Positions 1 to 64,000 of a stretch of DNA of 64,000 nucleotides are shown one piece after another. Where the stretch lies: positions 192,001 through 256,000 of the forward strand of contig CM000430.1 of assembly GCA_000165345.1 (NCBI GenBank), read 5' to 3'. Position numbers and translations under genes: made by a program. The notes beneath the pieces were generated by a model that did not search any database, was not told where the DNA came from, and saw only the letters and a list, made by a program, of their open reading frames with translations. How positions within the stretch are numbered: the first letter of the stretch is position 1; each line of letters starts with the position of its first letter.

Positions 1-2
1 AT

Positions 3-338
3 CTATCGTTTCTTTATAAATTCGAGGATTTAGAACAAATTAAGTCAATTTGCAAATCAACCTTGAAAATTTATACAATGGTAAATAAAAATCCTGGTGA
101 AAAAATTACTGAAGGAGGTAGAAGTGACCACGAGAAAAAGTATGAACTCTATGACGATCCAAAAAGTGCTGTAATTAGACAAGCTTTTAAAAGTGAAGAT
201 GTGACTTTAGATCTAGTCCATTTAAATAACGAAATAGATTCGATACATAACAATAAAAACATTATTCCAGTGGCAGACTTGCCACTTCCTTTAGTTTGTG
301 AAATGATATACTCGGATAAGTTTGCAGGGAAACAGTAA
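3..338 (+). CDS. Hypothetical protein; the frame is open from the window edge to the stop at 338, so this may be the 3' end of a gene that begins upstream (first ATG at 78)
   Basis: Frame 3 has no stop from position 3 to 338; the ORF-track start at 63 is a TTG; I recognise no domain in the 86-91 aa product. Confidence 0.25.
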   Translation, partial: LSFLYKFEDLEQIKSICKSTLKIYTMVNKNPGEKITEGGRSDHEKKYELYDDPKSAVIRQAFKSEDVTLDLVHLNNEIDSIHNNKNIIPVADLPLPLVCEMIYSDKFAGKQ

Positions 339-428
339 TTAAGAGAATATACTAGATGTATTTCGAGGTTATTAATATTGTTTCTATCATTACTAATGCT
401 TATTTTCTTTTTTTTTTTTTTAACTACC

Positions 429-1367
429 TTAAGCAGTAACGAAAGTTAGTATGTTTCTGAATGAAACAGATACTGTATCAAACATTTTTGACATTCTGTA
501 TGGACATGCATTTTCGTGGCATGGCTGAACATAATCGTTATTGACAAATCTTCGACTTACGAACCCGTTAGAATATCCCTTACCCCAAACAGGTGAGTTT
601 AAGTTAAATGATAAAGGTGTAAATTCTTTTAGAATATTCTGTGGTCCACTACTTTCATAATGAATGACTCCCCATTCTCCTTTATTATAAATGTCCCTAA
701 TTGTATACCAGCCATATAACAATCGATCTCCTTTAATACAGGATCCTTGGAACTTGGAGCAGGGTAGATAACCATCTTCTAAAACATTTAATAAAAATGC
801 TGTATCAAAAAGTGGGAGAGGACTTTCTGTTGCCTCATGTTGAGGTATTAATGATTGAACTAACTTATAACCAATAATATCCATATTTCTTACGTGGTAA
901 ATGGATGCAACTCTTAACTGGGTTCCTTGATCATATATATATGCAACACCATCCATTGACCTCAATAAGCATAGACCTGACAATTGTGGTCTCTCTGGTG
1001 TCTCGACTACCTTAAATTGAGATTTGAATGCTGGAATGATTGATAATATTCCTCCCCCAAAACCATTAAATGTATTACCAATTGAACATGCTGGAAGTCC
1101 TGCAATATCAACATCAGTCATTTCCTTGAAGAAATCTAACGATTTTCTTTCTAAATCTTCAATTTCACTCTGAGAAGCTCTCCAAATACGCCTATATACG
1201 TCGTAGTTGTTATCTGGAGGGAGATCGCCTCCTGTTGCCAATGGTACAATAATATCCGCCTGGAAATTTAATACATTCGTTATTTCACCTATTACGTGTT
1301 TAAATTTTATTAATACGTGTAAAATTAAAAAAAGTATTATACCTTCCCATCTATTAGTTTTTCTCAT
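429..1367 (-). CDS. Hypothetical secreted or signal-anchored protein (312 aa), family unknown
   Basis: ATG start confirmed (rc of cat at 1365-1367); the N-terminal hydrophobic stretch WEGIILFLILHVLI suggests a signal peptide or anchor; the body is globular and Cys-containing; no motif I can name. Confidence 0.55.
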   Translation of the reverse strand: MRKTNRWEGIILFLILHVLIKFKHVIGEITNVLNFQADIIVPLATGGDLPPDNNYDVYRRIWRASQSEIEDLERKSLDFFKEMTDVDIAGLPACSIGNTFNGFGGGILSIIPAFKSQFKVVETPERPQLSGLCLLRSMDGVAYIYDQGTQLRVASIYHVRNMDIIGYKLVQSLIPQHEATESPLPLFDTAFLLNVLEDGYLPCSKFQGSCIKGDRLLYGWYTIRDIYNKGEWGVIHYESSGPQNILKEFTPLSFNLNSPVWGKGYSNGFVSRRFVNNDYVQPCHENACPYRMSKMFDTVSVSFRNILTFVTA

Positions 1368-1752
1368 TTTTTTTCTTTTAAAAGATACTTCCTGGTTCTA
1401 AAAAACTAATTAGACTAGCGAATTTTTTTTTTTTTAGTATTGACTTTCCTTATAGATATTCAATAAAAAATCAAACTTTTGTATTTCTTTTCTTTTTGCC
1501 CTTTTATTGCTGAAATGTAGTCGGCAGAAGAAAAAAAAATAATAAATAATTTACCTTTTATATTTGACACGTTTCTTAATCAGAAACTTAAATATTAAAT
1601 GCTGTTGTCATTTATTCTTTAATTGTTGTCCTAGAGTATATTTTTTTCAGAGTTATCACTTTTTCAACAGCTCAATACACAATTTCACTAGAATACGAGT
1701 TACATGCATTTTTTGTGTTGTCCACATAAAATACTATAATATTAATGTGAAT

Positions 1753-1762
1753 TTACATGCAT
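1753..1762. promoter_or_regulatory. TGCATGCA palindrome (AP2-type motif) in the 5' flank of the gene at 429..1367
   Basis: tacatgcatgcaatt read directly, ~390 nt upstream of the ATG at 1367. Confidence 0.3.
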
Positions 1763-1964
1763 GCAATTAATAAGAAGCAACAAATAGGAGAGGAAGAAAA
1801 ATATGACGGAATAATATCAATAATTAATAGGTAATTAAAGCTACTCTAATGTATTCGTGTCTTTTTTAAATTATTAAAATGTTTTCTTAATACTACCTAT
1901 CCTAAATTCAAATGAGATAGAATACTCTCTTAACTAAATAAAGGTAATTATTAATAGAAGAGTT

Positions 1965-2597: not shown

Positions 2598-3072
2598 GAT
2601 TTTCTGATCCTTTGTTCTAGCTTTCTTACTTATTTTAAATTCGTTTATTAAGCACACTAATTCAAAATTGCGCCAAAGAGGTTCACAGAATAAATTATGG
2701 GAAAATATATTTCAAACATTACGCGCAAATTAAAACAATAAAGATTTATTTGTTAGTTAATGAAATGGGAGTAATGGGGGTTTCTTTAAACTTTATATAC
2801 ATCCAATCAATCTAAGGATACCCTCCCCCCAAATATTTCTAGTACTTTCTGTCTGTTTCCCCTTATTTATGTGTATACAAGTAGTAACTAAAGTAGAATA
2901 GAAATAACAGTGAAAGATCTCCATATCTGCTCGGTAAAAATGAGGAAACATCTAATTTTTTTTCTCCACAGCAGTCATAAAGTGCAATATTTGATATAGA
3001 ATTAGACTTTACTAATGCTATTCAAATCAACTAAATAATGTGATAAAAAAAAGAATATCTGTCCTTTTTTTT

Positions 3073-3756: not shown

Positions 3757-4301
3757 CTATTCTCTCATCTAACTAAAGCTTTTTATTCGGTAATTATTAC
3801 TTATTAGATAAATAATAACTCTTATTTCTAATCTTGGGTTAATTCCTTTACATTTATTTCTTAATTATTTTACTCATATAAGATTGAGCGCCAAAATGAC
3901 AAACCTAATTTAAATAGCATGCAAAAGGAATATTAACAAGATTAACACAGATATTACAAACTAGATAAAAAATAGCAATAAAATTACGGTAAAACTATGA
4001 AATCTCTAAATTCATAAATAGCAATATTATAAACAACATCTATTACACCTCTAGTTTTATCCCTGCTAGTTTTCTTTTGAAGTTACTAGCATTTATATGC
4101 TTTTAAGATGCAATTATTAGTACTATAAATATACAACGCGTTTCCCCCACGTAATTTTATTCTTCCTTTATGTGTATAAATACCTTAAATTTCAGTGAAT
4201 GAGTATTTAGTAAGCTGGAAAAAAAAAACTAAATAGCTCATTTTTTTCTTCTTTTTATTTCATTGTATATTTAAAAGTTTTGAGAATCTTTAGTATTTTT
4301 A

Positions 4302-6203: not shown

Positions 6204-6274
6204 AGTGAAATTTCTTATACAAGTTATTCAGACTTTGAACCACCGAAAAAGTTGTGTTTCCGTTCGCTTTACTA

Positions 6275-6297
6275 CCTCTCTCTTTCTCTCTCTCTCA
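6275..6297. repeat. CT/GA dinucleotide-rich tract upstream of BRE1
   Basis: ctctctctttctctctctctc read directly from the sequence, about 70-95 nt upstream of the BRE1 ATG (which is on the minus strand). Confidence 0.7.
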
Positions 6298-7288
6298 CTA
6301 CCTACTTTTTTTCTTACTTTATTCACTAAGCCAAGCAATAATTACTTGAGCAGTTTTCATGTATGACTAATTGGCAATTAAGCGCCAAGCAACTTTTTCG
6401 TCTCTAAATTAATATTAGTGAGGGGGAAGCCAATATAATATTAAAGAAAAAATAATCAAAATGTAAATAGATATATATATGAATGACTTGTTTTTGATAT
6501 ATTTTGGGTGAGTATTTAGCTCTGAGCATCAGTGTCCAAATAACTGTTTCCCAATGATACTTTGGGGTCGTTGTTCTTATATAAAATTAAGATTATATCA
6601 TTTGACTCAACGGTAATTATTTTTCTAAAAATAAGTTAGGAAATGAGAATTTAAGTTAAACTTGTGCGTGTGTTCAGTGAATAAACTTACTTTTTTGTTG
6701 TTTCTATAGTTATTGAAATATTCTCACTCAAAATTGAGCTTGATAAAGAACTTCTAATTTGTGTGATAGTAGAACAAAACTCTGAGACTTCATGTTTAAT
6801 ATGTTTAGATCCATATTCTGATTAATATTTAGAGATTATTTACTAGAACAGCAATAAGATTAATATAATTTACCTTGAATTGGTAGGCCTGTTTTTGTAA
6901 AAGATGCCATTCCTATGAATCCTGGTGAATTCTTTAATATCTCATAAGTAGAACTCATTTTATTAAGACTAAAAATATAAATATGCACTAAATTTGAATC
7001 TTAGAAATTTAATTATTTAATTTTTATTACTTTATTCTTGTTTCAATTCAGTCAATTAAATTCGTGTGGCGCCGAACACGTATTGTGGGAATCTACTGTG
7101 CAAATTCAACAATGTTAAAAAATTAGGATAAAAAAACAGAAAAAAAATAGTATTAGCAACTATTAAGACTATAAATATATATATATATAGCAATGTAGAT
7201 AATATAAAAAGATTTTTCTAGTATTTGTTAGCATTAGCTATGCCTTCGGTATATATGAAGTCCAAATATTTGTAAATAACAAATCACA

Positions 7289-11054: not shown

Positions 11055-11507
11055 TGCTTCCTATTCTTTTTTTCTTGGCCAAACAATTTTAAATTAATTG
11101 GTATAATTGACCACACAATACACCCTCTTTCTAAAAAAAAAACAAGAAAAAATGTATTTCCACTTCGCAAACTTCTTCCGGTTCCCCCCTATTTGGCTCA
11201 TTTTCAAGTATGAGACATGATGTCTTTAATGATTATTTGAAGGGCTCTATGTTTCCCGCCTATTCTTAAAAAATTATATTAAAAATATACTATGGGGAAA
11301 AAGTTAAGTATTGTGTGGAAAATATGTTTTCTGAGTAAAAATTTGTTGAAATAAAAAAGTGCAATATTTTGACCAAACATTGAAGTTTTGTGATAGTTAT
11401 TGAATAGCTTGGTTGAACACACAATATCGGGCATTTTTGAAGTTCTAATGGTTGATTTTGAAGTAAAATGCTAAATATATTGAAAATATAGGAAAATAAA
11501 TAAGAAA

Positions 11508-12638: not shown

Positions 12639-12971
12639 AATATATAGATTAGAGGTTGAACCATCTCCAATATCCCACAAATATTAACTAGCAATTCGCT
12701 GTTCATAATGTTTATTTTTATTCATATATAAATATCCCCCCTTTCGTATTTTCAATTTTGCATGTATTCTCGCATTTTATTTGCATGTGAATATATTTTA
12801 ATAAATAAAGATCGTTGGCGCCATACGTGTCTTATAAATTAATAGGTCAAATTATTAGCAAAATGCCATTCGATAATAAAAATAGATTGGTCTATTGATA
12901 AGTACTCACAGCTGTTAATAACTACCTAAATAAATATATTTGAAGAATTAAAATTATCCCTATAAGAGAAA

Positions 12972-16052: not shown

Positions 16053-16477
16053 TACATACTTTATTTGCAGGTTATAATACTGTATAATTTCTTAAAATTA
16101 ACACACTCAATAATGAGATTGCAAAAAATTAGTTCAAGACTAAGTAATTTAATTACATTATTTTAAAAAAAAGTCACATAAAAAACACAAAATAGTCAGT
16201 TTCGATTCAAAATTTGTAAATTATTTTTTTTATTTTATTTTTGTATCTGAATATTTGTTATTTCATCCGATAAAGGAAATTATTGCAATTTTGAAATGGC
16301 GGGAACATTCAAAATGTTATGTGGGTTAATAGCACAAATATCTGGGAAAAATGTCAAAAGGGGGGGTAATTTTTGTATAGAAATTAGGCATAAAGATAAA
16401 AATAAAATAATCTGAAAACCAAGAAAAGAAAAAAGAGACACGAGGAAATTATTTTTTCAGAGATTTAAATAGAATAG

Positions 16478-19519: not shown

Positions 19520-20060
19520 ATAGAACATCTTTTTTTCTCGCTCTTCCTTTTTAGCTGGACAAAATTACTTATAAATCACCATGCAGACTTAAACAGACAA
19601 GTTAAATCAACATTAGAACAAAATACTGGCACTTATGAGATTTACATCATACGTATCTATTTCAGACTAATTTAAATTCAAATATCTGTATATTCACAAG
19701 TTAAGAAATTTATTTGACAAGGACTACTTATTAAGAAAAAGATAACTAGTTTAGAATCATTAGAAATGTAGATCAACAATTATATTATCTCATTGGAGAA
19801 AACAATTTTTTAAAAATTTCTTCATTTTTTTATGAATTTACTATCATTTTGACAATTTTAATTAGAATTTTTAAAGGATATTTGCAATTTAGGCGGGAAG
19901 TGAAAAAACGACATAAATACTTACTATAGAGGAAACAATAATGGAGGAATAATATTAAGATAAAATAGCAAAAGTAAATCTTTTAAGTATATAATAGGTT
20001 AAAAGTAATTTTAAATACTAATTATTTGGAACATTTTGATGGGATTATCTAAGGATTACA

Positions 20061-23252: not shown

Positions 23253-23670
23253 TTACTCAGAGAATTTAATTTTTAGTTCTGGCGGGAAACGAGTGTAATT
23301 TAATCAAATGTTTATTGATACTTCACGGACGTTAAGTTTTTTTTTAATTTATCCATCATTAACACATTTTAACTAGTAAGTCTAAGAATGAAGAGTCAGA
23401 AATTATGCTTTAGTTTTTTAGATTTATTTTAATTCAATTATTATTTCATTAGAGTAGGTATTTAGGTATTTTTAAGGATTTTTTCATGATTTCCGTTTTC
23501 CGGATATATGCCATATTCTCAGTAAATAATAACTTAAACCTAGTAGGGATAAATTAGTAACTTGGATTTATTATAGAAAACGAAACATGGCAAAACTTAT
23601 TTGTTTTATAACTATTGCAATAATATTGAGATTTTTCTTCCAAACAAATGAATTTTCTGTCAAATTGTGG

Positions 23671-23682
23671 TTGGCGCCAAGT
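23671..23682. promoter_or_regulatory. E2F-like palindrome TTGGCGCCAAG ~115 nt upstream of the gene at 23796
   Basis: ggttggcgccaagttg; a second GGCGGGAAAC at 23281-23290 lies just downstream of the mucin gene stop. Confidence 0.4.
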
Positions 23683-25109: not shown

Positions 25110-25322
25110 GCTATTCACACTAAATTTTTCCCACAACTAATCAATTGATTGCTAATTTAACAAGGTTATAATTTATACTATTTGGCGCCATTTGCCCACA
25201 ATATTAAATACCACATGTAATATAAATTAATCTTGAAGTTAAAGGAAAAATTAGAAAGCAGATGTTCTAGAATACTGAAGTAGTACTCAAGGGTGTAATT
25301 TGTAGGTAATTTATTCACTAAA

Positions 25323-29566: not shown

Positions 29567-30079
29567 TTTAATCTAAGGCTCCCTTTTATAAATTCTTGAA
29601 TGTCACTGATTACACTATTTCTTTTGAATCTAATTACAATCTAGATAATCTCATTTTATCAAAATTTATCCCCTTTTGTTACTTCCAGTAATTATCCCTT
29701 TCACACAAATTTTTTTTGATTATTTTCTGGTTATTTAAACATATATTAATTTATTAGCGCATTATTATACAAATATTGGCGCTAAAAAAAGTACCGTATT
29801 ATTTTGACCAGGAAAAAAGCAAGGACAAAAAGAATAGGGAATAGGAATACTTGATTCAAAAAAAGTTTAAAGTTTTCTTGGACTAGAGCTTCGAAATTCG
29901 GATTTAGGACTGAATGTCTCTTAGGAGTTTGACTGCTCTTTAGTCTAGAGGGATCCAGAGGAAAACACAAAAGGTAGTCGTTTTTAGAGCTGAATAGTTT
30001 ACCAACGGAAAGGTAGCAAACAACCATCTATCTGGATTCTTAATACTTATAAGACAGAGTTAGGTGTATTTTAATAATC

Positions 30080-31216: not shown

Positions 31217-33163
31217 TCAATCTTTCTGTAATCTTCCCTTCATTCCATCAAATGTGTAAGTTTCCAATGCTGGTTCTGGTAACTTAATTGGATGAATTTG
31301 AAGATCAGTTTGCGTATACATAAACCAAGCCACAAAATCTTCGAGTATTCCATCAATGATAGACCTCCTTATCGACAATAATAAACCTTGATATTGCCAA
31401 TAGTTGTGCATGAATAACAATGAAAACCCTAAAATCTCACCGGAGTTGATTAAGTGGTGGATATATGCTCTCGAATGAGAGACTGGACTATTCTTTGTTA
31501 GTTTATCCGAGTCACAAGAATGTCTTCTATCATTCAGATTTAAATATTTGGCGCCACCGAAAAAACATACTCCTGCATCTACTTGCGCTCCCCCATTTTT
31601 CTCCAAAACTATTCCGCACTCATTACTTGAAAAATCAAACTCTAACAAAAATCTTTCAACATTCTTCTTCTCTTCGTCACTATAATTGATGATCTCTCTT
31701 TGCTTCAAAAACTCGTCAAGTTCAAATGATAGTGCGACTCCGCTTAGACTACATCTGTAAACATAAGGGCACTCAATAATGTCCATCCCAAGGTACACCG
31801 CTTGCAATATCTCTATAGGGCTACCCGTACTAAGTGAAATTAGCCTTAATTTATCATCAGGAACGTGATCCACAACAGCTTTAATGCACTCAGCCCTTAC
31901 TGACGACTTCTCTGAGTACCCCAGACCTCCTATGGCCACACCCAAAATCACTTCATCCAGTTCGCTGATCGCTTCGGGTCCACTTGAGCTATCAACCCTA
32001 AGATCAGCATTGCCTTTATCCCTTGAAAATCCAACATTTTTCAAGCCCTTGCCCATACCTCTACACAAATCCCACACACCCAGGGCAGCCGCTGCTCTGT
32101 AGTTCACAAACTGAGCTCCCTGTATATTTGCCAGCACCTTTGTCCTCGGTCTCTCAGACCTAATAGTGCGGAAAGCTCCTTCACCATCTTTTATAGAACC
32201 CTCCTCATCAACCTGGATTTTGCCTTTTTCTTCTATTTTCCTTTGAGTATATGCACTCTTTCTCTTTAGTTGCTCAATCAGAGCCAATAGCATCTCATCA
32301 GCTCTCTGAATCGACCTAAAAGATACATTTTTACCACATTGACCTGTTTGAGCCTCCTCTGCAGGAGAAATCAAAAATGCTGGTTGAAAGTATCTTACTG
32401 ACGCAACCAAATCGTCAATGCTGACCATTGCCCTTCCACTTTCAGTCTGAACCAGAATTCCATCCGAGCCATTCCAGCATGACACTCCAGGAATCATTGG
32501 CTGGCGGAACATCAGGTAATTGACATAGTCCTTGTTGGCTAGTTGAGGTGGGGGTTGTTCCAGCATGTCAAACTTACTTGCATTGTTCCCATATTTAATA
32601 CATGAACGATTTCCAGTTCGTTCATCATTTTTCTCTTTTATGGACTCCAACTCTCTCCTTTTGACTCTCTCCAAATCTAGTCCATGTCCTATTAGTAGAT
32701 AGTCCACTTCAGGCATCAAAGATGCTAACTCATAATTCTCTGATTGATCCGATTCAATCTTGGGCAAAATACAATGGGGCAGGCCTCCAAAAGTTGGAAC
32801 AGTGAATGACGGGGTCGCAATACTGGCTATCCCGAAATTCTCTAGGTTTACAAGACTCGATTTTGATCCAGTTTCTGTTATCTGAATACTCTCAATCAGA
32901 TCTGGGTTTTTAGAGGCCGTCTTAATTTCTGAGTGTCTTATCATATCACCATATTTTGAAAGAAAACATTCAGGAATCTCAAGGACTCCTAGTCTGTACC
33001 TTGCACCCCTATTATTATGCATTAAAATTCTAAAATTAACCATTGTATTAGATTTAACTAATTTAACAACTTTGAGGTGTTTTTCCTTATAACTTTTTAA
33101 ATCCCCAAAAGACATTTCGCGGGTTTTTAGAACACTGGATAGACACGGATCAATAATTTGCAA
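31217..33163 (-). CDS. QTRT2: Queuine tRNA-ribosyltransferase family protein, accessory-subunit type (QTRT2/QTRTD1-like), extended
   Basis: DKLRLISLSTGSPIEILQAVYLGMDIIECPYVYRCSLSGVALSFELDEF and HSRAYIHHLINSGEILGFSLLFMHNYWQYQ align with QTRT2 [33 protein letters not shown]...ALTFSFD and [29 protein letters not shown]. The ORF-track start is a TTG; the first ATG is about 16 codons in. My base numbering in this region has a 1-nt uncertainty. Confidence 0.75.
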   Translation of the reverse strand: MQIIDPCLSSVLKTREMSFGDLKSYKEKHLKVVKLVKSNTMVNFRILMHNNRGARYRLGVLEIPECFLSKYGDMIRHSEIKTASKNPDLIESIQITETGSKSSLVNLENFGIASIATPSFTVPTFGGLPHCILPKIESDQSENYELASLMPEVDYLLIGHGLDLERVKRRELESIKEKNDERTGNRSCIKYGNNASKFDMLEQPPPQLANKDYVNYLMFRQPMIPGVSCWNGSDGILVQTESGRAMVSIDDLVASVRYFQPAFLISPAEEAQTGQCGKNVSFRSIQRADEMLLALIEQLKRKSAYTQRKIEEKGKIQVDEEGSIKDGEGAFRTIRSERPRTKVLANIQGAQFVNYRAAAALGVWDLCRGMGKGLKNVGFSRDKGNADLRVDSSSGPEAISELDEVILGVAIGGLGYSEKSSVRAECIKAVVDHVPDDKLRLISLSTGSPIEILQAVYLGMDIIECPYVYRCSLSGVALSFELDEFLKQREIINYSDEEKKNVERFLLEFDFSSNECGIVLEKNGGAQVDAGVCFFGGAKYLNLNDRRHSCDSDKLTKNSPVSHSRAYIHHLINSGEILGFSLLFMHNYWQYQGLLLSIRRSIIDGILEDFVAWFMYTQTDLQIHPIKLPEPALETYTFDGMKGRLQKD

Positions 33164-35542: not shown

Positions 35543-36562
35543 TGTTCTGCATTAATATCGTGCTCCCTTTGTTATTCCAAGCTTCTAGCATGCAAGAGTT
35601 TTATTTGTACACAAATTATTATTTCTGATTTTAAAGAAGACAGCATTTTTTGGCGGCAAGTGTCTCTAGTGGGGTTAATTGCCAAACTTGGCCAAATTTG
35701 GCAATGAATAAAAATATCCTTCCCTCCCCACTTATTTTATTTTTCCGTAATTTTTTTGCTTCATGAATGCATTTAATTTCTCCCAAGTCCGTTGCATATA
35801 GTTTCTCCTACTATCGCCTTTGCTAATGACAGGGTTCTACTTTTTTGCATTTTTTCTTCTATTGACAGATCTAATACAAATCACTGGGATGGAACGATCC
35901 GTAATCAGATCTTTAAGGGGGGAAAATTGGAGAACTAATTCGTCTAATAACGGTTGCTAATACCTAGAATAGAGCTAGAGAGGTCTTATTAGCCTCCAAC
36001 CCAACGGAGTTCTTGGCAGACCTCCTTGTTCTCTCTACGCTAGTCTTTGCTACAAACTATTATTACACTACTCCTTTCTCTGCTCTGTTCTAATGCTAAT
36101 ACCTCTCCAAGATTAACCCTAAAGAGAAAAATAAAGTCGAAAAACTTGGCAGAATTGCGTTTCACCAAACGAACGCAATGAAGACCTAGATAAAAAATGG
36201 GCGCCTATAGATCTATAATTGTGACAAAACATTCCTAATAAACATAATAAAGAAGTCTAGTGACAATACTTACAGATTTGATAAATTGGTCAATTAATGC
36301 GCCTTTCCGTCTGTCTTTAAACTTACTATTACGAATAAGTAATTATCGTTATTAGAGACGAATAATACATATAGTAAAAGAGGCGCGCATTTAGACTTAG
36401 CGAACGGTATTTAGGAAATGTTAAATTAACGGAAAAAACCAAAAAGGCGCGACTAAATGACCAAAACAATTCAAAGCTGAACTTTTACTAGAGTATCGGT
36501 TAGCTATTTCCGATTATTAAAGAACTATAGTCTTGGCCTTCTTTAAAGTAATAAAGCACTAA

Positions 36563-38326
<1,764 letters not shown>

Positions 38327-38697: not shown

Positions 38698-38726
38698 TTT
38701 GGCGCCTTGCGGTAATGGCGGTAGCG
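38698..38726. promoter_or_regulatory. Paired E2F-like motifs TTTGGCGCC ... GGCGG inside the GC-rich helicase-Rpn9 spacer
   Basis: aaagtttggcgccttgcggtaatggcggtagcg read directly from the sequence. Confidence 0.35.
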
Positions 38727-39450
38727 TTGTAACATTGAGAAAATGAAATAAGACAGCATGCAGGAGTGGATCTAACTAGTTCAACATGTTTAGAGGAATA
38801 AGGATGTTGCGCGTATTCTTTCGGTTATATTATCTGTGCGAAAATAACTGAGTGCGCTGTTTTATTGTGGGCAATTACAAGAGTTCATATTGGTCTTTTG
38901 TGGTGCGAATGAGGCTGTCATTCTTTTTGCTTATACGTTTATTCGTCTTTAGTTGTTAGGGACTAGTTGCTGAGTACCAGAATCCAAACTTTAGCATTTA
39001 TTTCTTTGAAGGACTCCCTCAGTATTACGAGTCTTTCCGCCTGTTGCGAAAAAAAAAATCAAACTCAGGCTTCAGTTCCCAGAAGAATTGCGTTTCCGAC
39101 GAGTATATATGGTTTTGTAGATAATTTGAGTATTAGATATTGGCTTTGTTGTGTTAATTTATTATTTAAGATATTTGTTTTTGTTCGGAATTTTTTCACT
39201 TGGACACATGTTGTGGCTCCTTGAGGGATGTGAATTATATACCGGCATTGGGCGCCAACAGCCTTTTGCATTGAGTGGGAGGGGGGAGAGGGGAAGACTA
39301 AGCTTAACAGACTTTCTTCTTTGGAAGGATCCACCATTGACAAAGAGTGTAAACAAATCATAGATATTCTCAAATAGAGTTTCTTGAGAGAATCTAGTTA
39401 AACAAAAGATTGAGGGAACGTAGAACGGAAAGGCTTGGGAAACAAAAGCA

Positions 39451-41992: not shown

Positions 41993-42027
41993 AACTTTAG
42001 TATCTTTTTTCCTTTAAAATTCAATGT

Positions 42028-42039
42028 TAGGCGCCAATT
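42028..42039. promoter_or_regulatory. E2F-like motif TTAGGCGCCAAT in the 72-nt spacer between the cytochrome b5 gene stop and the mitochondrial-carrier ATG
   Basis: gttaggcgccaatttt sits ~40 nt upstream of the carrier start codon (minus strand). Confidence 0.4.
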
Positions 42040-42064
42040 TTAAAAGAAAATTAAGAAAAAATAA

Positions 42065-42795: not shown

Positions 42796-43220
42796 ATACT
42801 AAGTTCTTAAAAGAAGCAAAATTAGAAGACTATTGCACGAAAGAAGTGTAAAAAATTAATTATTTGCCTTTATAGTTAATAAATTGTTCATGCAGAACCT
42901 TTTACGCGCAATTCTCATTTTTAGAAAATTACAATATTTATTTTTTATCAAATTTTAAATCCAAGTTCTAGAGGTATTATAAAAACATAACTTCTTAAAA
43001 ACTACTATTTAATTAATTATGGTATAATTTTCTCTCTTGCTCAATTCTTATTCACTTTAGAATTCATATATTAATCTCATATCTAATATAGACCATTTTT
43101 TTGGCGGTAACTGGCATTCTTGTATAAGCTGATTTTGTTTTTGCATATTTCCAGTTTAATATTTTTGAGTAAAATAGATATTCTTTTATTTTTGATAAAT
43201 TGAAACTTTTTGGAAATGTT

Positions 43221-46552: not shown

Positions 46553-47640
46553 CTCCTTTTCAGAAAAAGCATTTCCTTCCTAAACTTTTACTTTTTTCCT
46601 ATTCAGAATATGTTGTAATTATTTCTATTAATTAATTCCAAATTATTAATTCATATGTCTATCAAACCATTAGCCTCGATGTTTATTCCTTATATGTTTT
46701 ATTATGATTTGAAGAAAATCAAGAATTAGTTTAGAATCACTTTGGGTATTCAACTTAATTTAATTTTTGAGAAAATAAGCTGAATTATATTTGGTTTATT
46801 AATCCTTGTGAACTAATTTGGCTCTTTACATTCATAAATGTTATTTGCCAGATTTACTTCAAGCTTATAAGGGATTATAACCACATTATATAATGAAAGT
46901 TTGCAATACTAATGTTCTAAAGTTTGCATTAATTATTACCTTTCTTTATCTTTTCGCTGATTTTTAATCTATTATTCACGCACGCTAATTTGCTTTGGCT
47001 ATTATTTTTAACTTATTTAACTTGTTATAATAATTATTTAAATAATTGGTTTTAACCGCCTAAACTTTTGTTTTCCATTAGCCATATTACTTATCAATCC
47101 ATTTGTAAAAATGTTAGCGCTCTGAAGAATTCAATTTTGATACTTTAATTATATTGCAAGAAAAATTAGAATTATTAAATAAAAATGTTTTTCTATTAGT
47201 ATAAAAAAAGCTAAAATAATTAGTTATATCTGCTTTATTTCTGAGAAATTCTATTTACAACAGGATGTTAGAGAAGAAAATGTGATTTAAAAGAATGAAT
47301 CTATATATACACACACAAAGATATTCTCGTTAATAAAGCTCAACATAGTTATTTTTAAAAGTCAAATACCTGTACTATCCACTGCATTGCTGTTTCTTTT
47401 TTCCATGAATTCATTCATTAAATTCATTTCCCTTTGCTTGTTTACCCCTTTATTTATTAAAACACTTTTAAAGGCGCCATATGTATCATGTCTATTCTGT
47501 CTCGAAAAATAAATAGCAAATTCATAACTTGAATAGCAATAAATATTGAAAAAATTAGTGTTATAGAGACGTGGGTCAGAGCAAGTCATTTTGGGAAGAA
47601 TTCGTTTATTTATTTGACAAATTAATCCTAACATTTAAAT

Positions 47641-47961
47641 ATGCCACCAAAGGGTGAAAAGAAGACTAAGGAGCAAATTGCAGCAGCAGCAGCAGCAGGA
47701 GGTAGAGCAAAGCGCAAGAAGTGGTCAAAGGGTAAGCAAAAGGATAAGGCAAACCACTCCGTCTTGTTCGACAAGAAGACTGCAGACCGTTTCCATAGTG
47801 ATGTTTTGAAGTCAAGACTTTTGACCCCAGCTGTCGTTGTTAACCAATTAAAGGTTAATGCCAGCGCTGCTAGAGCCATGTTACGTGACTGTGAATCAAA
47901 GGGAATTATCAAGCCAGTTGGAGAACAGACTCACGGACAAATGATATATACAAAGGCATAA
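47641..47961 (+). CDS. RPS25: 40S ribosomal protein S25 (eS25)
   Basis: MPPKGEKKTKEQ...KKWSKGKQKDKANHSVLFDKKTADRF...KLLTPAVVVNQLKVNASAARAML is the eS25 signature. Confidence 0.93.
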   Translation: MPPKGEKKTKEQIAAAAAAGGRAKRKKWSKGKQKDKANHSVLFDKKTADRFHSDVLKSRLLTPAVVVNQLKVNASAARAMLRDCESKGIIKPVGEQTHGQMIYTKA

Positions 47962-49911: not shown

Positions 49912-50050
49912 CGCAAATTACATACTTTTGGCCACAATATTTCTCTAATTAGTCAATTTATTTGTTCATTGACAGAAAAAAGTTTGGGCGGGAATATTTG
50001 AATTTGTCAACGATCAAAATGACATGAAATTACATTAAATTTAAAAAAAA

Positions 50051-51568: not shown

Positions 51569-51880
51569 TTTCACAAAATCACAAATCAACAGAAAGAATT
51601 ATTTAATATACATAAATCTATATAAATATCTAAATTATTTTTTACTTGGCTATTTGCATTATTAATTCATCCTTTTTTTGTCCTCACACAGTGTAGCGCA
51701 TTGGCGCCTAAATTTTGCACAGTCTTAATAAGTCCATAAGAAAAATTAGTGAGATGGGAGTGGAAATAAAAGGAAAAATCAAACTTATAATTAAAAGATT
51801 TTCGTGGTAGCTTGTTAGCGATGTTAGTGACTGTTACTTCAATGGAGGGAGTTGGAGACTTAATTATTCTGAACTAACCC

Positions 51881-54793: not shown

Positions 54794-54897
54794 GATGAAA
54801 AGTCTAGTAATTATTTAAAATTGAAGCAACAATACTATTCAGCCTCTAGTGTTTAGTTTCTTTCATTAGCAACTTACGGAAAAACAGTGTCTGCATG

Positions 54898-54912
54898 TTT
54901 GCCGCCAAAATT
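54898..54912. promoter_or_regulatory. E2F-like motif (TTTGCCGCCAAAA) in the divergent MCM2 / PGS1 promoter region
   Basis: gtttgccgccaaaattg sits ~105 nt upstream of the MCM2 ATG (minus strand) and ~370 nt upstream of the PGS1 ATG; MCM genes are classical E2F targets. Confidence 0.45.
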
Positions 54913-55277
54913 GTGGGGAACTTTACTTACTAAAGAGTTCAATTGCAGCAGCTTAAATAAAACAAAAAACTGCACTAATGGAATAATTAAACCATTTGAT
55001 TTCTAATTTTTGAGCAACTTTATAACATAATTCGTTACTGAACCTAAAGCATAGTAAATATAAATTACTCATTAGTATTAAATAGGTGCAAAATTTGTAA
55101 ATGCGTACAGTACTCTGATTAATTAATTAAAAAAAGACGTTCTTTCTTAAAAGATATCTTTTTTATAACTTTTTCCATTCTTATTGTTTATTTTAATTTA
55201 TTTATTCTATTTTTCAGTTGTCAATTAGGAGCCAACAGAATTTAAGAGGGAAATTTTCGGTTTTAGAGAAAATAACC

Positions 55278-56807
55278 ATGTCTGAAAAAATTATAGGCAA
55301 GGTTTTCAGGGTCAAAGATGATCAAATTCATATCTTGAATTCTCCATCATCATTTAAAGACTCACTTAACTCTATATTACTCAATGCTAAAAATAGGATA
55401 TATATTTCATCTTTATATACGGACAATGAAAATGAGGTAAGGGGAAAATTTTCAAATAGAATTCCCACTGAGTCATAGAATTTCAATTTATTATTAACTC
55501 ATTAATTTGTATCTCTATAGATTACCAAAACACTAAGAAATGTGGCTGAAAAATTAGAGAATAGTAGTGCTAGAGATTTAAAGATTAAAATAATTTTAGA
55601 TTATAATAGAATGACAAGAAAAGAAAATATTAACCCATTTATTAAGGCACTCAATAAATATCCAAACTCAGTAGTAATTTCACTCTGCAAAATTCCAATA
55701 GTTAATTATTCAGGTAATTTACTTGGACGAGCTACATGGAACGTGATAAATATTTTTTCAAAATACAAGAGAGTATCGTTTCTAAAGGAGGTGCTTGGAG
55801 TATACCACATAAAAATATTTATGGCAGATGACAACATAATTATCACCAGTGCAAATTTGAATTCTGAGTACCTTTTAAATAAACAAGATAGATACATAAT
55901 GATTACAGGTGCAAAGGAAATATGCGACTATTTCGAACAATCATTAGATTTAATATCAGAATACTCGCATAGAGTTTTGTCTGAGGGAGAAATACAAAAA
56001 CCTAAAAAACTCCATTTTAACGAATTAAAAAGAGATTTAATGGAGTTAAGTAGTGATGCAGACTTTCATGATAAAATAGCATCCACAATTAAGAAAAAGT
56101 TGAACAATGAAGATGCTTCTGATGATTGTGTACTGGCATCTTATTTTCAATGTTCTCCAATAAATATCAAAGCTGAAGAGCAAATCATTACAAATATTTC
56201 CCAACTTTGCGATAAAAAAAACACAGATATTTTTCTGATCGCTCCTTACCTAAATCTTCCCAAATACTTTATCTCACTGCTTAAAAATAGAGAGAGATCA
56301 GTAAATATAGTATCTGGAGTTCCTATCACGAAATGTGATAAAATGATTAAGAAACACAATAAACCGTCATTGGAAAGAATCAGAACTCTAGTTCTTCCAA
56401 AACTATACACTTACATAAATTACTTATTTATAAATCAGCTTAGGACGCAAGGAAATGGAATTATTAATTATTTCGAATATAAAAAGCCAAATTGGTCATT
56501 CCATTTTAAAGGTATTTATTTTTTTAGAAATATTAGCAAATCTAACCCTTGTGGCTCGAATATGCAAAATCAAGGGCAAATCATGGCTACTACATTTGGA
56601 AGTTCTAACTACAATTATAGAAGTACTAATAAGGATTTTGAGTGTTCATTTGTCCTAATACCCAATCAAAATAAAATTCTTGAAAAATCTTTAAATAATG
56701 AATTGACAAATATAATGAACACATCTGTAAAACAATGCGCGCCAAAAATCACTTGGAGACGTTTATTAATTTTGAAAGTAGTCAAAATATTTCAAGAATA
56801 TTTGTAG
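55278..56807 (+). CDS. PGS1: CDP-diacylglycerol--glycerol-3-phosphate 3-phosphatidyltransferase (PGS1, PLD-superfamily). Two exons (55278..55436, 55521..56807) with an 84-nt phase-0 intron
   Basis: Exon 1 ...ISSLYTDNENE|GTAAGG; acceptor tctctatag; exon 2 ITKTLRNVAEKLE... The spliced product matches PGS1 N-terminal conservation, and the HKD motif HIKIFMADDNIIITSANLNSEY lies in exon 2. The two parts are separate ORFs in the track. Confidence 0.85.
55437..55520 (+). other. Spliceosomal intron (84 nt, phase 0) in PGS1
   Basis: GTAAGGGGAAAATTTTC...TTTGTATCTCTATAG; joins the two track ORFs 55218..55478 and 55542..56807 into one PGS1 reading frame. Confidence 0.75.
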
Positions 56808-56860
56808 CAGAGAAGACTGGAGACAATATAGATAGATTTTCCGCTGCTTAAGAAAATCTG

Positions 56861-56881
56861 ATATATATATATATATATATA
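56861..56881. repeat. (AT)10 dinucleotide microsatellite between PGS1 and UBA4
   Basis: atatatatatatatatatat read directly from the sequence. Confidence 0.9.
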
Positions 56882-56895
56882 GGTTTAGTTTGTTG

Positions 56896-58386: not shown

Positions 58387-58407
58387 AAACTTATTTATAC
58401 TTAATTT

Positions 58408-60453: not shown

Positions 60454-60573
60454 TATTAATATTTACTAACACAAATTGCGGTAAAATTTCTGGTCAAAAA
60501 ATTTTAAGACAAACTGAAATAAAAATTAGCATAAAAAAAAGTTAAATTATTAATTAGCGTTAAGTTAATCCAA

Positions 60574-61542: not shown

Positions 61543-61642
61543 GTATGTAATCTCACATCCGAATATTAAATGAAATTCAGTCTCATTGCTACTTTTTATT
61601 CTTGATTTAATTTATCAACTTTTTTCATTTACAAATATGTGC

Positions 61643-61658
61643 CACGTGGCGCCAAATC
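61643..61658. promoter_or_regulatory. CACGTG box immediately abutting an E2F-like GGCGCCAAA motif, upstream of syntaxin
   Basis: gccacgtggcgccaaatcac sits ~100 nt upstream of the syntaxin ATG (minus strand). Confidence 0.4.
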
Positions 61659-62593
61659 ACAAATATTTATTTAATTGCACAGATCCAAATAAATTGTATG
61701 ATATTTACTATATAACGGACAGGAAAAAACACATAAGTTTGCTAAGATAATTCCCACAATTAAAATACCTTGTGAAAATTTTACTGTAAACTAATTTAAT
61801 CTAAACCTTAATTTTGAACCGCTCTAGGCTTCTTCTGCCTCAATTAACAATGATTGCTCAATGTTTGACTATAGATAGGACCTATGCTTAAAGCAATTAA
61901 GACTTGTATTCCAAGTTTTACAATACTTGACTCATTCCCTACCTCCAAATCATAATGCTACAATTTATATATTTCAAATAATAACTATTTAATACAATGC
62001 GATTTTGATGACAAAAATAACGTATTTTTTTCTAATCCTATAGAATGTATTTAGCATCGAATTCTATTCTTAAATGATTTGAATTATGATTCATTCCAAT
62101 AATTGAGCTTTTACATTCAAACTATTAATCAAGCGCACTCAAAACTACCTTCTCGTTTTAAGTCGTAATACAGCAGCTTGAATCAAGATCCAGCACTATA
62201 TGTAGAAATATAACTCATTTATACATATTTGTGAAGAATTTATTACTTTTTACTTGAATTTTTCCCGTTTAAAATACTCAAAATTCTAATCAAGATCAAT
62301 AGTAAAAAAAGGTGATAAACTCTAAGCTAAGGAAAATTTTATTAACAAATTATATGCAATAATAAATTGCTTTAGAAATGCTTACGAGCAGGAAGCTGCA
62401 AATTCACGTTAATATTAAATCTTATATTCTAATGAAAAATTTATTCGAGGAAAAATGGGAGCAAGATCAATTGCCGGCAAATCACTTTAATTTATTAAAC
62501 ATAAATATTATGTACAATTTTTATATTTATAACTGTATCTTTTCCTATTATTTTAATTAAAGATAAATTAACTTTTGAAATGTGTCTTGAAAT

Positions 62594-62606
62594 TGGGCGC
62601 CAAATC
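62594..62606. promoter_or_regulatory. E2F-like palindrome TTGGGCGCCAAAT upstream of the C2H2 zinc-finger gene
   Basis: attgggcgccaaatcgcc; a second GCCGCCAA sits at ~62693, 150 nt from the ATG. Confidence 0.4.
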
Positions 62607-62842
62607 GCCAATTCCAGTTTTTTATATAGTCAAATATATATATAAAGTCGCTGGAGTGGAGCGAATAATTAAAATATTGTGGTTATAGGACGCCGCCAAT
62701 AATTAATAAATAATTATTACTTTTTTCCTTTCCAGTTGAAATTAAACGAGTTTATGTAAGCGGTTTGCTTTGTGATTAAACAGTTGAGTAAAAGTTGGCA
62801 ACATTAGTAGAATCAAATAATATTCGTTATTTATGAAGAGTA

Positions 62843-63850
62843 ATGTCTTCAGAAGCAGTAGATGTGAAATCTCCAAGACTATTCGCTTGTGGATATCCTG
62901 GTTGTCATGCATCGTTTAAAAGAAGGTCTCATTTGGAGCGTCATGCTCAAACTCATACCGGAATAAAGCTTTTTAAATGTCATGAATGTTCAAAAGCATT
63001 CGGAAGAAGTGACCACTTACGCCGTCATATGATGTTGGTACATAGCTCAATTGAAGAAAAAGCGAGTTATCCATGTTCATCCTGTAATAGTGTATTTATG
63101 AGTCCAACATCATTAAGAAGACATATTAAAAGGTCACATGACACACCATATATTTGTGAGGTTTGTGGTAATCTCTTTCCATCTGCCACTTCCCTTCAGA
63201 GGCATACTCTCAGGCAACATCTTACTGCTGAAATTCCATTTCCTAATCGTACAGAAGATAGCAATTCAAAGCAATGTTGGTATGTTTGCAGAGCTGATCC
63301 TATGTTATGCTCTGCGGCTTTTCTTTCGTACCCTGGCTTAGTAAGACACATTAAATCTAAGCACTGGTCCTCGTCTAATGAGCCACAACCACTCATTCTT
63401 AACCAGAATCAGTGTATAATAAATAATGAGAATTCGCAAAATCAATGCCTATACGCCTTGCCTAATGAGGCCAACGTAGGCCATAACGAAAATGATCCCT
63501 TATTGAATAATACAATTGGGGAAAATAAAGATAGTGATATTGATTGTTCATATAGGTGTCCATACCCTGATTGTGGAAGATTTTATAGCTCAAAGAGCAA
63601 TGTCAGAAAACACATACAAGTTTCACATTGTAACAGCAAACCTTACGAATGCCACTTATGCCCCAAAAAGTACGGCTACAGAACTCCTTATATTCGCCAT
63701 ATGAAAAACAGCCACCCTGAATTCCAAGACGAAAACATAATAAATGACCATTGTAGTGGAATTACCACAATGGACGAATCTCACAGCGATCTAACGATAC
63801 CCGGAACTCCTCACTACCCTCCACTATACGTTGATGCTATTCCTTTTTAA
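62843..63850 (+). CDS. C2H2 zinc-finger protein (at least 6 C2H2 fingers in two clusters)
   Basis: Repeated C-x2-4-C-x12-H-x3-5-H units: CGYPGCHASFKRRSHLERHAQTH, CHECSKAFGRSDHLRRHMMLVH, CSSCNSVFMSPTSLRRHIKRSH, CEVCGNLFPSATSLQRHTLRQH, CPYPDCGRFYSSKSNVRKHIQVSH, CHLCPKKYGYRTPYIRHMKNSH. Confidence 0.8.
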   Translation: MSSEAVDVKSPRLFACGYPGCHASFKRRSHLERHAQTHTGIKLFKCHECSKAFGRSDHLRRHMMLVHSSIEEKASYPCSSCNSVFMSPTSLRRHIKRSHDTPYICEVCGNLFPSATSLQRHTLRQHLTAEIPFPNRTEDSNSKQCWYVCRADPMLCSAAFLSYPGLVRHIKSKHWSSSNEPQPLILNQNQCIINNENSQNQCLYALPNEANVGHNENDPLLNNTIGENKDSDIDCSYRCPYPDCGRFYSSKSNVRKHIQVSHCNSKPYECHLCPKKYGYRTPYIRHMKNSHPEFQDENIINDHCSGITTMDESHSDLTIPGTPHYPPLYVDAIPF

Positions 63851-64000
63851 TTTGGCTCGGGGCCGCATAATCATATTAAATGGAAGTAAACTAATTCAAA
63901 TTATCAAATTTTATAGTATCAATAGCTTGAAGCTTTAATTTTTGTTTATTTAAGAGATTTTCTATTTTATACAAAAAAAATTATTAGAATAGGAAAACAT

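What the first reader, a model, noticed from the sequence alone, without database searches (positions are those of the whole stretch)
1..64000. Pervasive E2F-like GGCGCC / GGCGGGAA motifs in nearly every intergenic spacer
By eye I find more than 25 occurrences of (T)TTGGCGCCAA(A), GGCGGGAA or GCCGCCAA in ~20 kb of intergenic sequence. Those found: 2670, 3897, 6382, 7068, 12827, 16296, 19889, 23281, 23673, 25184, 29777, 35651, 36199, 36383, 36446, 38698, 39251, 42030, 43099, 47473, 49984, 51703, 54901, 61648, 62596, 62693. By contrast only about two lie in ~44 kb of coding sequence. They are mostly 40-200 nt upstream of an ATG and are often shared by divergent gene pairs (MCM2/PGS1, syntaxin/ZnF, RRM gene/helicase). 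In a 30% GC genome a G/C-only 6-8 mer is strongly unexpected by chance. This looks like a general core-promoter or bidirectional-promoter element rather than a cell-cycle-specific one.
Basis: partly seen in the sequence, partly recalled or inferred. Interest (0 to 1): 0.55.

Follow-up and report, generated by a model that had tools for sequence, protein, structure and literature searches.

The report
Known E2F-like promoter boxes in Cryptosporidium
The short G/C-rich boxes (TTGGCGCCAA / TTGGCGGGAA) really do sit about 100-250 bases upstream of most genes in this stretch of Cryptosporidium parvum chromosome 2, but they are the E2F-type promoter motif already described as the most abundant upstream motif in this parasite.

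Summary
The window is Cryptosporidium parvum chromosome 2 (exact protein matches; MCM2 = cgd2_1100). GGCGCC occurs 16 times against 0.9 expected. The E2F consensus TTSSCGC/GCGSSAA is 10.5 times denser in intergenic DNA than in ORFs (21 vs 6 hits, p = 1e-8), although intergenic DNA is poorer in G+C.

De novo k-mer analysis puts GGCGCC, TGGCGC and GGCGCCAA at the top of the intergenic list. The 23 intergenic sites give the consensus tt-GGCG[C/G][C/G]-aa, with unrelated flanks. Nineteen of them lie 40-260 nt upstream of an ATG, against 40% expected (0 of 20,000 permutations). Two more join them once I added a missed small gene. 21 of 32 genes carry a site within 300 nt upstream (null mean 1.2).

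The enrichment repeats in syntenic loci of C. felis, C. bovis and C. muris/C. andersoni. Sites stand at similar distances from orthologous start codons and form islands of conservation in otherwise diverged spacers.

This is already known: Bankier 2003, Mullapudi 2007, Oberstaller 2013/2014 (upstream of 161 of 200 expression clusters) and Xiao 2025 (top motif in open-chromatin peaks). Binding by E2F/DP has never been shown. The "general, not cell-cycle-specific" reading fits; "core promoter element" is unproven. Interest is low.

The parts
2670..2676 (.). E2F-like half-site GCGCCAA, 76-79 nt upstream of the proteasome-subunit ATG (2597, - strand)
3888..3894 (.). GCGCCAA, about 135 nt upstream of the Ccdc124/HMG gene ATG (3756, -)
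   Evidence: orthologous sites in C. felis, C. bovis and C. andersoni
6382..6388 (.). GCGCCAA, about 188 nt upstream of the RING-finger gene ATG (6197, -)
7068..7073 (.). GTGGCGCC, 112 nt upstream of the ATG (6958, -) of a small three-exon gene that the ORF map missed
   Evidence: orthologous GTGGCGCC in C. andersoni at L004:13872
11253..11259 (.).
12815..12822 (.). TTGGCGCC, 154 nt upstream of the ATG of insulinase-like gene a (12972, +)
16299..16305 (.). GGCGGGAA, 176 nt upstream of the ATG of insulinase-like gene b (16478, +)
19893..19899 (.). GGCGGGAA, 165 nt upstream of the ATG of the 1063-aa signal-peptide protein (20061, +)
23282..23288 (.). GGCGGGAA, 30 nt past the previous gene's stop codon and 511 nt upstream of the next ATG; a positional outlier
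23671..23680 (.). Full palindrome TTGGCGCCAA, 121 nt upstream of the ATG at 23796 (+)
25182..25189 (.). TTGGCGCC, 138 nt upstream of the ATG at 25323 (+)
29776..29782 (.). TTGGCGCTAA in the divergent spacer, 213 nt from the ATG at 29566 (-) and 301 nt from the Rpb5 ATG (30080, +)
35653..35659 (.). TTGGCGGCAA, 114 nt upstream of the RRM gene ATG (35542, -)
36200..36205 (.). GGGCGCC, 364 nt upstream of the DEAD-helicase ATG (36566, +). Variant cores GGCGCGC at 36382-36388 and GGCGCG at 36446-36451 lie closer (183 and 120 nt)
38699..38706 (.). TTGGCGCC, 749 nt upstream of the PSD13/Rpn9 ATG; a positional outlier in a 1.1-kb spacer
39251..39258 (.). GGCGCCAA, 197 nt upstream of the PSD13/Rpn9 ATG (39451, +)
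42030..42037 (.). GGCGCCAA, 41 nt upstream of the mitochondrial-carrier ATG (41992, -), in the short gap after cytochrome b5
   Evidence: C. felis equivalent at L001:21979, 54 nt upstream
43100..43110 (.). Variant TTTGGCGGTAA in the divergent cytochrome b5 / 347-aa gene spacer, about 118 nt from the ATG at 43221. The orthologous positions in C. felis and C. bovis carry canonical GGCGCC
47473..47478 (.). GGCGCCA, 168 nt upstream of the RPS25 ATG (47641, +). RPS25 is absent from the ORF map of at least 120 aa
   Evidence: C. felis site 120 nt from the RPS25 ATG
49988..49994 (.). GGGCGGGAA, 80 nt upstream of the ATG at 49911 (-), inside a 139-nt spacer
   Evidence: orthologues at 67, 80 and 92 nt
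51701..51708 (.). TTGGCGCC, 136 nt upstream of the MBOAT ATG (51568, -). It is a conserved island together with GTGTGAGGACAA
   Evidence: (alignment A1)
54899..54905 (.). TTTTGGCGGCAAA (read on the - strand), 109 nt upstream of the MCM2 ATG (54793, -) and about 376 nt from the PGS1 ATG (55278, +). It sits in the conserved block CCCCAC-ATTTTGGCGGCAAACATGCAG
   Evidence: (alignment A2)
56739..56745 (.). GCGCGCCAAAAA inside the 3' end of the PGS1 coding sequence, 160 nt upstream of the ThiF/MOCS3 ATG (56899, +). The spacer itself is only 91 nt
   Evidence: C. felis has TTGGCGCG inside PGS1, about 105 nt upstream of the ThiF ATG
61648..61655 (.). GGCGCCAA, 109 nt upstream of the syntaxin ATG (61542, -)
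   Evidence: orthologues at 82, 89 and 100 nt
62596..62603 (.). GGCGCCAA, 244 nt upstream of the C2H2 zinc-finger ATG (62843, +). A second core, GCCGCCAA at 62692-62699, lies 150 nt upstream
31548..31555 (.). Full 8-mer TTGGCGCC inside the coding sequence of the TGT-like gene (3' part); role unknown, possibly an antisense or internal promoter
   Evidence: E2F motifs upstream of antisense lncRNAs are reported in PMC7840661
34560..34567 (.). Full 8-mer TTGGCGCC inside the coding sequence of the RRM gene; role unknown

Best explanation
These are promoter-proximal cis-regulatory boxes of the E2F type (consensus TTGGCG[C/G][C/G]AA, a palindrome or near-palindrome) in the compact genome of Cryptosporidium parvum.

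Shown here: one or two copies sit about 40-260 nt upstream of the start codon of roughly two thirds of the genes in the window, whatever the gene's function. The copies are under purifying selection across the genus.

Inferred: they are bound by the parasite's E2F/DP winged-helix heterodimers. Cryptosporidium is the only apicomplexan genus known to have kept these proteins. Binding would mark or open the promoter and drive transcription, in either direction because the site is symmetric, from the short spacers of this genome. Copies in very short spacers or inside the 3' end of an upstream gene would serve the downstream gene. Copies deep inside coding sequence may serve antisense lncRNA promoters.
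For: - Organism: exact protein matches to C. parvum Iowa II. MCM2 is cgd2_1100, and its 485-nt upstream region (PMC1779779) matches the 54794-55277 spacer.
- Over-representation. Against a second-order Markov model, GGCGCC, TGGCGC and GGCGCCAA top the intergenic k-mer list, and nothing similar appears in coding sequence.
- Compartment bias: 10.5-fold denser in intergenic DNA than in ORFs, p = 1.3e-8, although intergenic DNA is 29% G+C and ORFs 34%.
- Position: 19 of 23 intergenic sites lie 40-260 nt upstream of an ATG, against 40% expected (0 of 20,000 permutations). That gene list already included RPS25, which places the 47473 site 168 nt upstream. A second missed gene places the 7068 site 112 nt upstream, which makes 20 of 23.
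- Coverage: 21 of 32 genes have a site within 300 nt upstream (null mean 1.2, maximum 6 in 2,000 runs). None of the 32 has one in the first 300 nt of its coding sequence.
- Consensus: tt-GGCG[C/G][C/G]-aa, with unrelated flanks. This equals the textbook E2F site TTTSSCGC.
- Selection: the enrichment repeats in C. felis (13 vs 4 sites, p = 1e-7), C. bovis (10 vs 4, p = 1.5e-5) and the gastric species (GCGC core 11 vs 2, p = 4e-6). Sites stand at matching distances from orthologous ATGs and form conserved islands in otherwise diverged spacers.
- Literature: C. parvum encodes E2F and DP proteins. The motif lies upstream of 161 of 200 expression clusters. PBM-tested ApiAP2 domains bind other motifs. 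E2F is the top motif in sporozoite ATAC-seq peaks.
Against: No experiment has shown that Cryptosporidium E2F/DP binds these sites; the 2025 review says most regulatory components lack validation. The trans factors are not encoded in this window, so I could not examine them. About a third of the genes here lack a strict copy. Eight copies lie in coding sequence. Three intergenic copies (23282, 36200, 38699) lie 364-749 nt from the nearest ATG. Distances were measured to ATGs, not to transcription start sites. The gene map is ORF-based with manual corrections.
Confidence: 0.8

Rival explanations
1. The boxes are functional promoter elements but are read by a different sequence-specific factor, such as an ApiAP2, C2H2 zinc-finger or other GC-box binder, rather than by E2F/DP.
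For: No direct binding data exist for E2F/DP in Cryptosporidium. The motif occurs at genes of every function and expression time, which is unlike classical E2F regulons. Several variants depart from the strict consensus: GCGCCAA half-sites, and TAGCGCTA in C. muris.
Against: The consensus with its T-rich and A-rich flanks is the textbook E2F site. The C. parvum AP2 domains tested by PBM bind TGCAT, CACACA and G-box motifs, not this one. Cryptosporidium is the one apicomplexan genus that keeps E2F/DP, and it is also the one where this motif dominates upstream regions.
Confidence: 0.12
2. The boxes act mainly through DNA or chromatin properties, for example as nucleosome-excluding or boundary elements or as replication-origin marks in an AT-rich genome, without a dedicated activator.
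For: They are short G/C islands in 29% G+C DNA, lie in open chromatin, work in either orientation and occur at most promoters.
Against: Specific bases are fixed (GGCG invariant in 23 of 23 sites, with TT/AA flanks), not merely G+C content. The exact sequence is conserved at orthologous promoters while neighbouring bases drift. That pattern is typical of a protein recognition site.
Confidence: 0.05
3. The pattern is an artefact of chance or base composition, or the sites are copies of a dispersed repeat.
For: None found.
Against: Observed counts are 15-60 times those expected under dinucleotide shuffles and Markov models. Flanks share only 31% identity on average, with a maximum of 52%. The pattern repeats in four other species. 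There are no tRNA or Rfam matches in the window.
Confidence: 0.01

Closest known systems
The E2F-like upstream motif of Cryptosporidium parvum (5'-TGGCGCCA-3', [C/G]GCGC[G/C], GGCGGG): Bankier 2003; Mullapudi 2007 (PMC1779779); Oberstaller 2013 (PMC3734150) and 2014 (PMC4117751); Xiao 2025 (bioRxiv 10.1101/2025.01.17.633476)
   Same: Same organism, same sequence and same location upstream of genes of all classes. MCM2 (cgd2_1100), which lies in this window, was one of the promoters analysed in 2007. The 'general, not cell-cycle-restricted' reading and the link to bidirectional open-chromatin peaks are both already in print.
   Different: Nothing essential. This analysis adds a local measure of the distance to the ATG (mode about 110-190 nt). 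It also adds evidence from C. felis, C. bovis, C. muris and C. andersoni that site presence and position are conserved at orthologous promoters. I did not find either point in the papers read.
Canonical E2F/DP sites of animals and plants (TTTSSCGC; the E2F4-DP2-DNA structure of Zheng et al. 1999, as cited in PMC3734150)
   Same: The core and the T/A flanks are identical, the site is palindromic, and it lies in the proximal promoter. A classical target, MCM2, carries one.
   Different: In animals and plants the sites are concentrated at cell-cycle, DNA-replication and repair genes and are controlled through Rb-family pocket proteins. Here about two thirds of all genes carry one, and no Rb orthologue is reported in apicomplexans.
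General promoter-defining factors of compact genomes (for example the yeast general regulatory factors Reb1, Abf1 and Rap1); recalled from general knowledge, not tested here
   Same: A short, specific site at a large fraction of promoters, which works in either orientation and is associated with nucleosome-free regions and divergent gene pairs.
   Different: The protein family is unrelated. The analogy is functional only, and no chromatin or binding data were available here.

Membership tests
E2F/DP binding site (cis element) | Sequence matches the consensus TTTSSCGC / TTSGCGCSAA, with a (C/G)GCGC(G/C) or GGCGGG core and T- and A-rich flanks | tested here: met
   Frequency matrix of the 23 intergenic sites: GGCG invariant, then C/G, C/G; TT upstream in 15-18 of 23 sites, AA downstream in 17-18 of 23
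E2F/DP binding site (cis element) | Located in promoter-proximal DNA and depleted from coding sequence | tested here: met
   10.5-fold denser in intergenic DNA. 19 of 23 sites lie 40-260 nt upstream of an ATG. 21 of 32 genes have a site within 300 nt upstream; none has one in the first 300 nt of its coding sequence
E2F/DP binding site (cis element) | The genome encodes E2F and DP winged-helix proteins | not tested
   These genes are not in this window. The literature lists cgd1_1560 and cgd6_1430 (E2F) and cgd7_3650 and cgd8_1850 (DP)
E2F/DP binding site (cis element) | The sites are physically bound by E2F/DP (EMSA, PBM, ChIP) | not testable with these tools
   No such experiment was found in the papers searched. 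The 2025 review states that most components lack validation
E2F/DP binding site (cis element) | Under purifying selection as a discrete element (phylogenetic footprint) | tested here: met
   Conserved islands in the MBOAT and MCM2 spacers of C. parvum, C. felis and C. bovis. Sites stand at matching distances from orthologous ATGs in up to four species per gene (five species sampled). The enrichment repeats in each species
Classical cell-cycle E2F regulon | Sites confined largely to cell-cycle, DNA-replication and repair genes | tested here: not met
   Of the 21 genes with a site, only MCM2 is a classical target. The others include proteasome, ribosomal, protease, SNARE, lipid-metabolism and transporter genes
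Core promoter element (TATA or Inr type) | [quoted passage not shown] | not testable with these tools
   No start-site data are available. The distance to the ATG spans 41-260 nt and the site is palindromic, so orientation is undefined. Asymmetric GGCGGGAA copies occur in both orientations relative to the gene
Bidirectional promoter element | A single site serves both genes of a divergent pair | tested here: inconclusive
   After correcting the gene map there are seven divergent spacers. Five hold a single site: CCT-theta/kinase, 769-aa gene/Rpb5, cytochrome b5/347-aa gene (a variant site), CDPK/RPS25 and MCM2/PGS1. Two hold one site near each gene: RRM/helicase and syntaxin/ZnF. Whether a single site is really shared needs start-site and mutagenesis data

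The most novel reading that the evidence does not exclude
The E2F-like box is a promoter-defining element across the whole genus, held at a similar distance (roughly 70-200 nt) from the start codon at orthologous genes from the intestinal species (C. parvum, C. felis, C. bovis) to the gastric ones (C. muris, C. andersoni). It would act as a general chromatin-opening factor site that works in either orientation, functionally like the yeast general regulatory factors, and would largely stand in for conventional core-promoter signals. Copies inside coding sequence would then be real promoters for downstream genes or antisense RNAs.
Probability: 0.35. Interest if true: 0.45.

Novelty: already known. 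Interest (0 to 1): 0.15.

Why it matters
Cryptosporidium is a major cause of childhood diarrhoea, and its gene regulation is poorly understood. One ancient transcription-factor family (E2F/DP), lost from all other apicomplexans, appears to mark most of its promoters. That is biologically notable and has been recognised for over a decade. The open question is experimental, namely whether E2F/DP binds these boxes and what that binding does, and this window adds nothing decisive to it. The modest additions here are the measured distance to the ATG and the conservation of site position across species. Both support function and could guide promoter design for transgenes.

Tried and rejected
- Composition or chance artefact: rejected by dinucleotide shuffles and Markov expectations and by a Markov null for upstream regions.
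- Dispersed repeat or mobile-element remnant: rejected. Flanks are unrelated (mean identity 31%).
- Linked to RNA genes: no tRNA and no Rfam family in the window.
- Distant outlier sites as evidence against promoter linkage: two of them turned out to lie upstream of genes missing from the long-ORF map. These are RPS25 at 47641-47961 and a small three-exon gene with its ATG at 6958. Three others (23282, 36200, 38699) remain 364-749 nt from the nearest ATG.
- Depletion in convergent (3'-3') spacers: 0 sites in 5 spacers, but these total only 1.1 kb (about 1.4 sites expected). The test has too little power and I did not use it as evidence.
- A gastric-lineage motif variant: C. muris shows three TAGCGCTA palindromes at promoter-like positions, but C. 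andersoni has canonical GGCGCC. The sample is too small to claim a shift in specificity.
- ApiAP2 as the reader of the motif: disfavoured by published PBM data.
- Examining the E2F/DP proteins themselves: not attempted. They lie on other chromosomes, and the homology tools list only the top hits for a query, which would be animal and plant proteins.

Full report
**What the window is.** The sequence is 32% G+C and tightly packed with long, mostly intron-free ORFs. Thirty ORFs of at least 120 aa cover 48.0 kb and leave 16.0 kb between them. Pfam annotation gives ordinary eukaryotic housekeeping genes: proteasome subunits, CCT-theta, two tandem insulinase-like M16 peptidases, Rpb5, a DEAD helicase, a CDPK, MCM2, an MBOAT enzyme, a syntaxin and a C2H2 zinc-finger protein. 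The MCM2 protein and a 1063-aa membrane protein are identical to Cryptosporidium parvum Iowa II entries EAK88850.1 and EAK88860.1, on a chromosome of about 993 kb. MCM2 is cgd2_1100. Its published upstream length of 485 nt (PMC1779779) matches the 54794-55277 spacer I derived. The window is therefore C. parvum chromosome 2.

**Checking the observation.** Two coordinates are off by about 10 nt. Several sites are half-sites or one-base variants rather than the three named strings. One intergenic site (TTCCCGCC at 11253) was missed.
- Whole-window counts: GGCGCC 16 vs 0.92 expected; GGCGGGAA 6 vs 0.23; TTGGCGSS 16 vs 0.92.
- Unsupervised k-mer analysis of intergenic DNA against its own second-order Markov model ranks GGCGCC (12 vs 0.52), TGGCGC (19 vs 2.2) and GGCGCCAA (10 vs 0.16) first. 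Nothing comparable appears in the ORFs.
- The canonical E2F consensus TTSSCGC/GCGSSAA gives 21 intergenic and 6 coding hits. That is a 10.5-fold difference in density (Fisher p = 1.3e-8), although intergenic DNA is poorer in G+C (29% vs 34%).
Eight merged sites lie in ORFs.

**Anatomy.** Merging overlapping hits gives 31 sites, 23 of them intergenic. Aligned on the core, these 23 give tt-GGCG[C/G][C/G]-aa, with GGCG invariant. Sequence beyond two bases on either side is unrelated (mean pairwise identity 31%), so this is not a dispersed repeat.

Position is strongly biased.
- Nineteen of the 23 sites lie 40-260 nt upstream of a start codon, against 40% expected for uniform placement in intergenic DNA (0 of 20,000 permutations).
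- Two distant outliers of the original long-ORF map turned out to lie upstream of genes that map had missed. RPS25 at 47641-47961 puts the 47473 site 168 nt upstream. A small three-exon gene with its ATG at 6958 puts the 7068 site 112 nt upstream.
- Three intergenic sites remain far from any ATG: 23282, 36200 and 38699, at 364-749 nt.
- With the corrected list of 32 genes, 21 have a strict site within 300 nt upstream. A first-order Markov null gives a mean of 1.2 and a maximum of 6 in 2,000 runs. No gene has a site in the first 300 nt of its coding sequence.
- One 'coding' site (56739) lies in the last 70 nt of PGS1, 160 nt upstream of the next gene's ATG. The spacer between those two genes is only 91 nt.
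- None of the five convergent spacers holds a site. They total only 1.1 kb, so this carries no weight.

**Evidence from related species.** I fetched the syntenic regions around MCM2 and CCT-theta from C. felis, C. bovis, C. muris and C. andersoni. Gene order is conserved.
- The intergenic enrichment repeats in each lineage: C. felis 13 vs 4 sites (16-fold, p = 1e-7); C. bovis 10 vs 4 (11.6-fold, p = 1.5e-5); the gastric species 4 vs 0 strict sites and 11 vs 2 for the GCGC core (p = 4e-6).
- Sites stand at similar distances from orthologous start codons. In the order C. parvum / C. felis / C. bovis / gastric species: MBOAT 139/128/131/214 nt; MCM2 113/112/none/107; syntaxin 110/82/89/100; the small gene 114/181/108/71.
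- Spacer alignments show the box as an island of identity in otherwise diverged sequence. Upstream of MBOAT it is TTTAGGCGCCAA, followed by GTGTGAGGACAA. Upstream of MCM2 it is CCCCAC-ATTTTGGCGGCAAACATGCAG, a G-box next to the E2F box next to a TGCATG-like element.
- This is direct evidence of purifying selection on the boxes.

**Mechanism.** Shown: a specific 8-10 bp palindromic element, selectively maintained, lies at a preferred distance upstream of most genes regardless of function. Inferred: the parasite's E2F/DP heterodimers bind it and promote open chromatin and transcription.

The inference rests on three points.
- The sequence is identical to the canonical E2F site.
- Published inventories list two or three E2F and two DP genes in C. 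parvum, and none in other apicomplexans (PMC3734150, PMC4117751, PMC12246861).
- E2F is the most prominent motif in sporozoite ATAC-seq peaks, more than half of which are annotated as bidirectional promoters (bioRxiv 10.1101/2025.01.17.633476).

PBM-tested C. parvum ApiAP2 domains bind TGCAT, CACACA and G-box motifs, not this one, which weakens the main rival. No direct binding experiment was found. The two full 8-mers deep inside coding sequence (31548, 34560) may be promoters of antisense lncRNAs, since E2F motifs are the top motif upstream of C. parvum lncRNAs (PMC7840661). That is conjecture.

'E2F-like', 'promoter-associated' and 'general rather than cell-cycle-specific' are supported. 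Only MCM2, among the 21 genes with a site, is a classical E2F target. 'Core promoter element' cannot be tested without transcription start sites and is less economical than a proximal transcription-factor site. 'Often shared by divergent pairs' is partly right. Five of seven divergent spacers hold a single site, but two of the three named examples (syntaxin/ZnF and RRM/helicase) have a separate site next to each gene.

**Novelty.** None in substance.
- The motif was noted in non-coding DNA of C. parvum chromosome 6 in 2003 (cited).
- CGCCAA- and GGCG-core motifs were found upstream of replication and glycolysis genes in 2007; MCM2 (cgd2_1100), the gene in this window, was among the replication genes analysed in that study.
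- It was counted upstream of 161 of 200 expression clusters in 2014.
- It was tied to open chromatin, bidirectional promoters and polycistron spacers in 2025.

The small additions here are the measured ATG-distance bias and the conservation of site position across species. I did not see either in the papers read.

**Verdict.** This is a real, strong and functional-looking feature, correctly spotted by eye, and already known. Interest is low.

Noticed in passing
window, all intergenic DNA: Two other motif families are over-represented in the spacers: G-box GGGGGG (15 vs 1.4 expected) and TGCATG/GCATGC (17 vs 3.9; 7 vs 1.1). Both are published ApiAP2 motifs of C. parvum.
   Followed up: partly
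window 54880-54925 (- strand); L001:9870-9915; L002 equivalent: The MCM2 promoter holds a composite conserved block, CCCCAC-ATTTTGGCGGCAAACATGCAG: a G-box, the E2F box and a TGCATG-like element within about 40 nt. It is shared by C. parvum, C. felis and, with a degenerate E2F core, C. bovis.
   Followed up: partly
window 51670-51700 (- strand), about 12 nt 3' of the E2F box at 51701-51708: A second conserved island, (CACT)GTGTGAGGACAA(A), lies upstream of MBOAT in C. parvum, C. felis and C. bovis. It may be related to the published CACACA/GCACAC AP2_2 motif.
   Followed up: no
window 56739-56745; L001:8175-8181: An E2F-like box lies inside the 3' end of the PGS1 coding sequence, at promoter distance from the downstream ThiF/MOCS3 gene, in both C. 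parvum and C. felis. It looks like a regulatory site embedded in coding sequence, or a sign of a dicistronic unit.
   Followed up: partly
window 31548-31555 and 34560-34567: Full TTGGCGCC 8-mers lie deep inside the coding sequences of the TGT-like and RRM genes, far from any annotated start. They may be promoters of antisense lncRNAs or internal promoters.
   Followed up: no
L003 (C. muris) 2124, 3300, 9474: Three TAGCGCTA palindromes sit 42-100 nt upstream of start codons, where the intestinal species have GGCGCC-type boxes. C. andersoni (L004) has canonical GGCGCC. This could be a local variant or a small-sample effect.
   Followed up: partly
window 47641-47961 (+); 6567-6958 (-); 55278 (+); upstream of 10793 (-); 41993-42219 (-): An ORF-only reading misses several coding features: RPS25 (106 aa); a small three-exon gene; exon 1 of PGS1 (ATG at 55278, with an intron before the main ORF); a 5' exon of CCT-theta (orthologues are 555-565 aa, the ORF 527 aa); and the second exon of cytochrome b5.
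   Followed up: partly
window 23282, 36200, 38699: Three intergenic E2F-like boxes lie 364-749 nt from the nearest start codon. One sits just 30 nt past a stop codon, and the spacers concerned are 0.5-1.1 kb long. They may mark unannotated transcripts such as lncRNAs or small genes.
   Followed up: no
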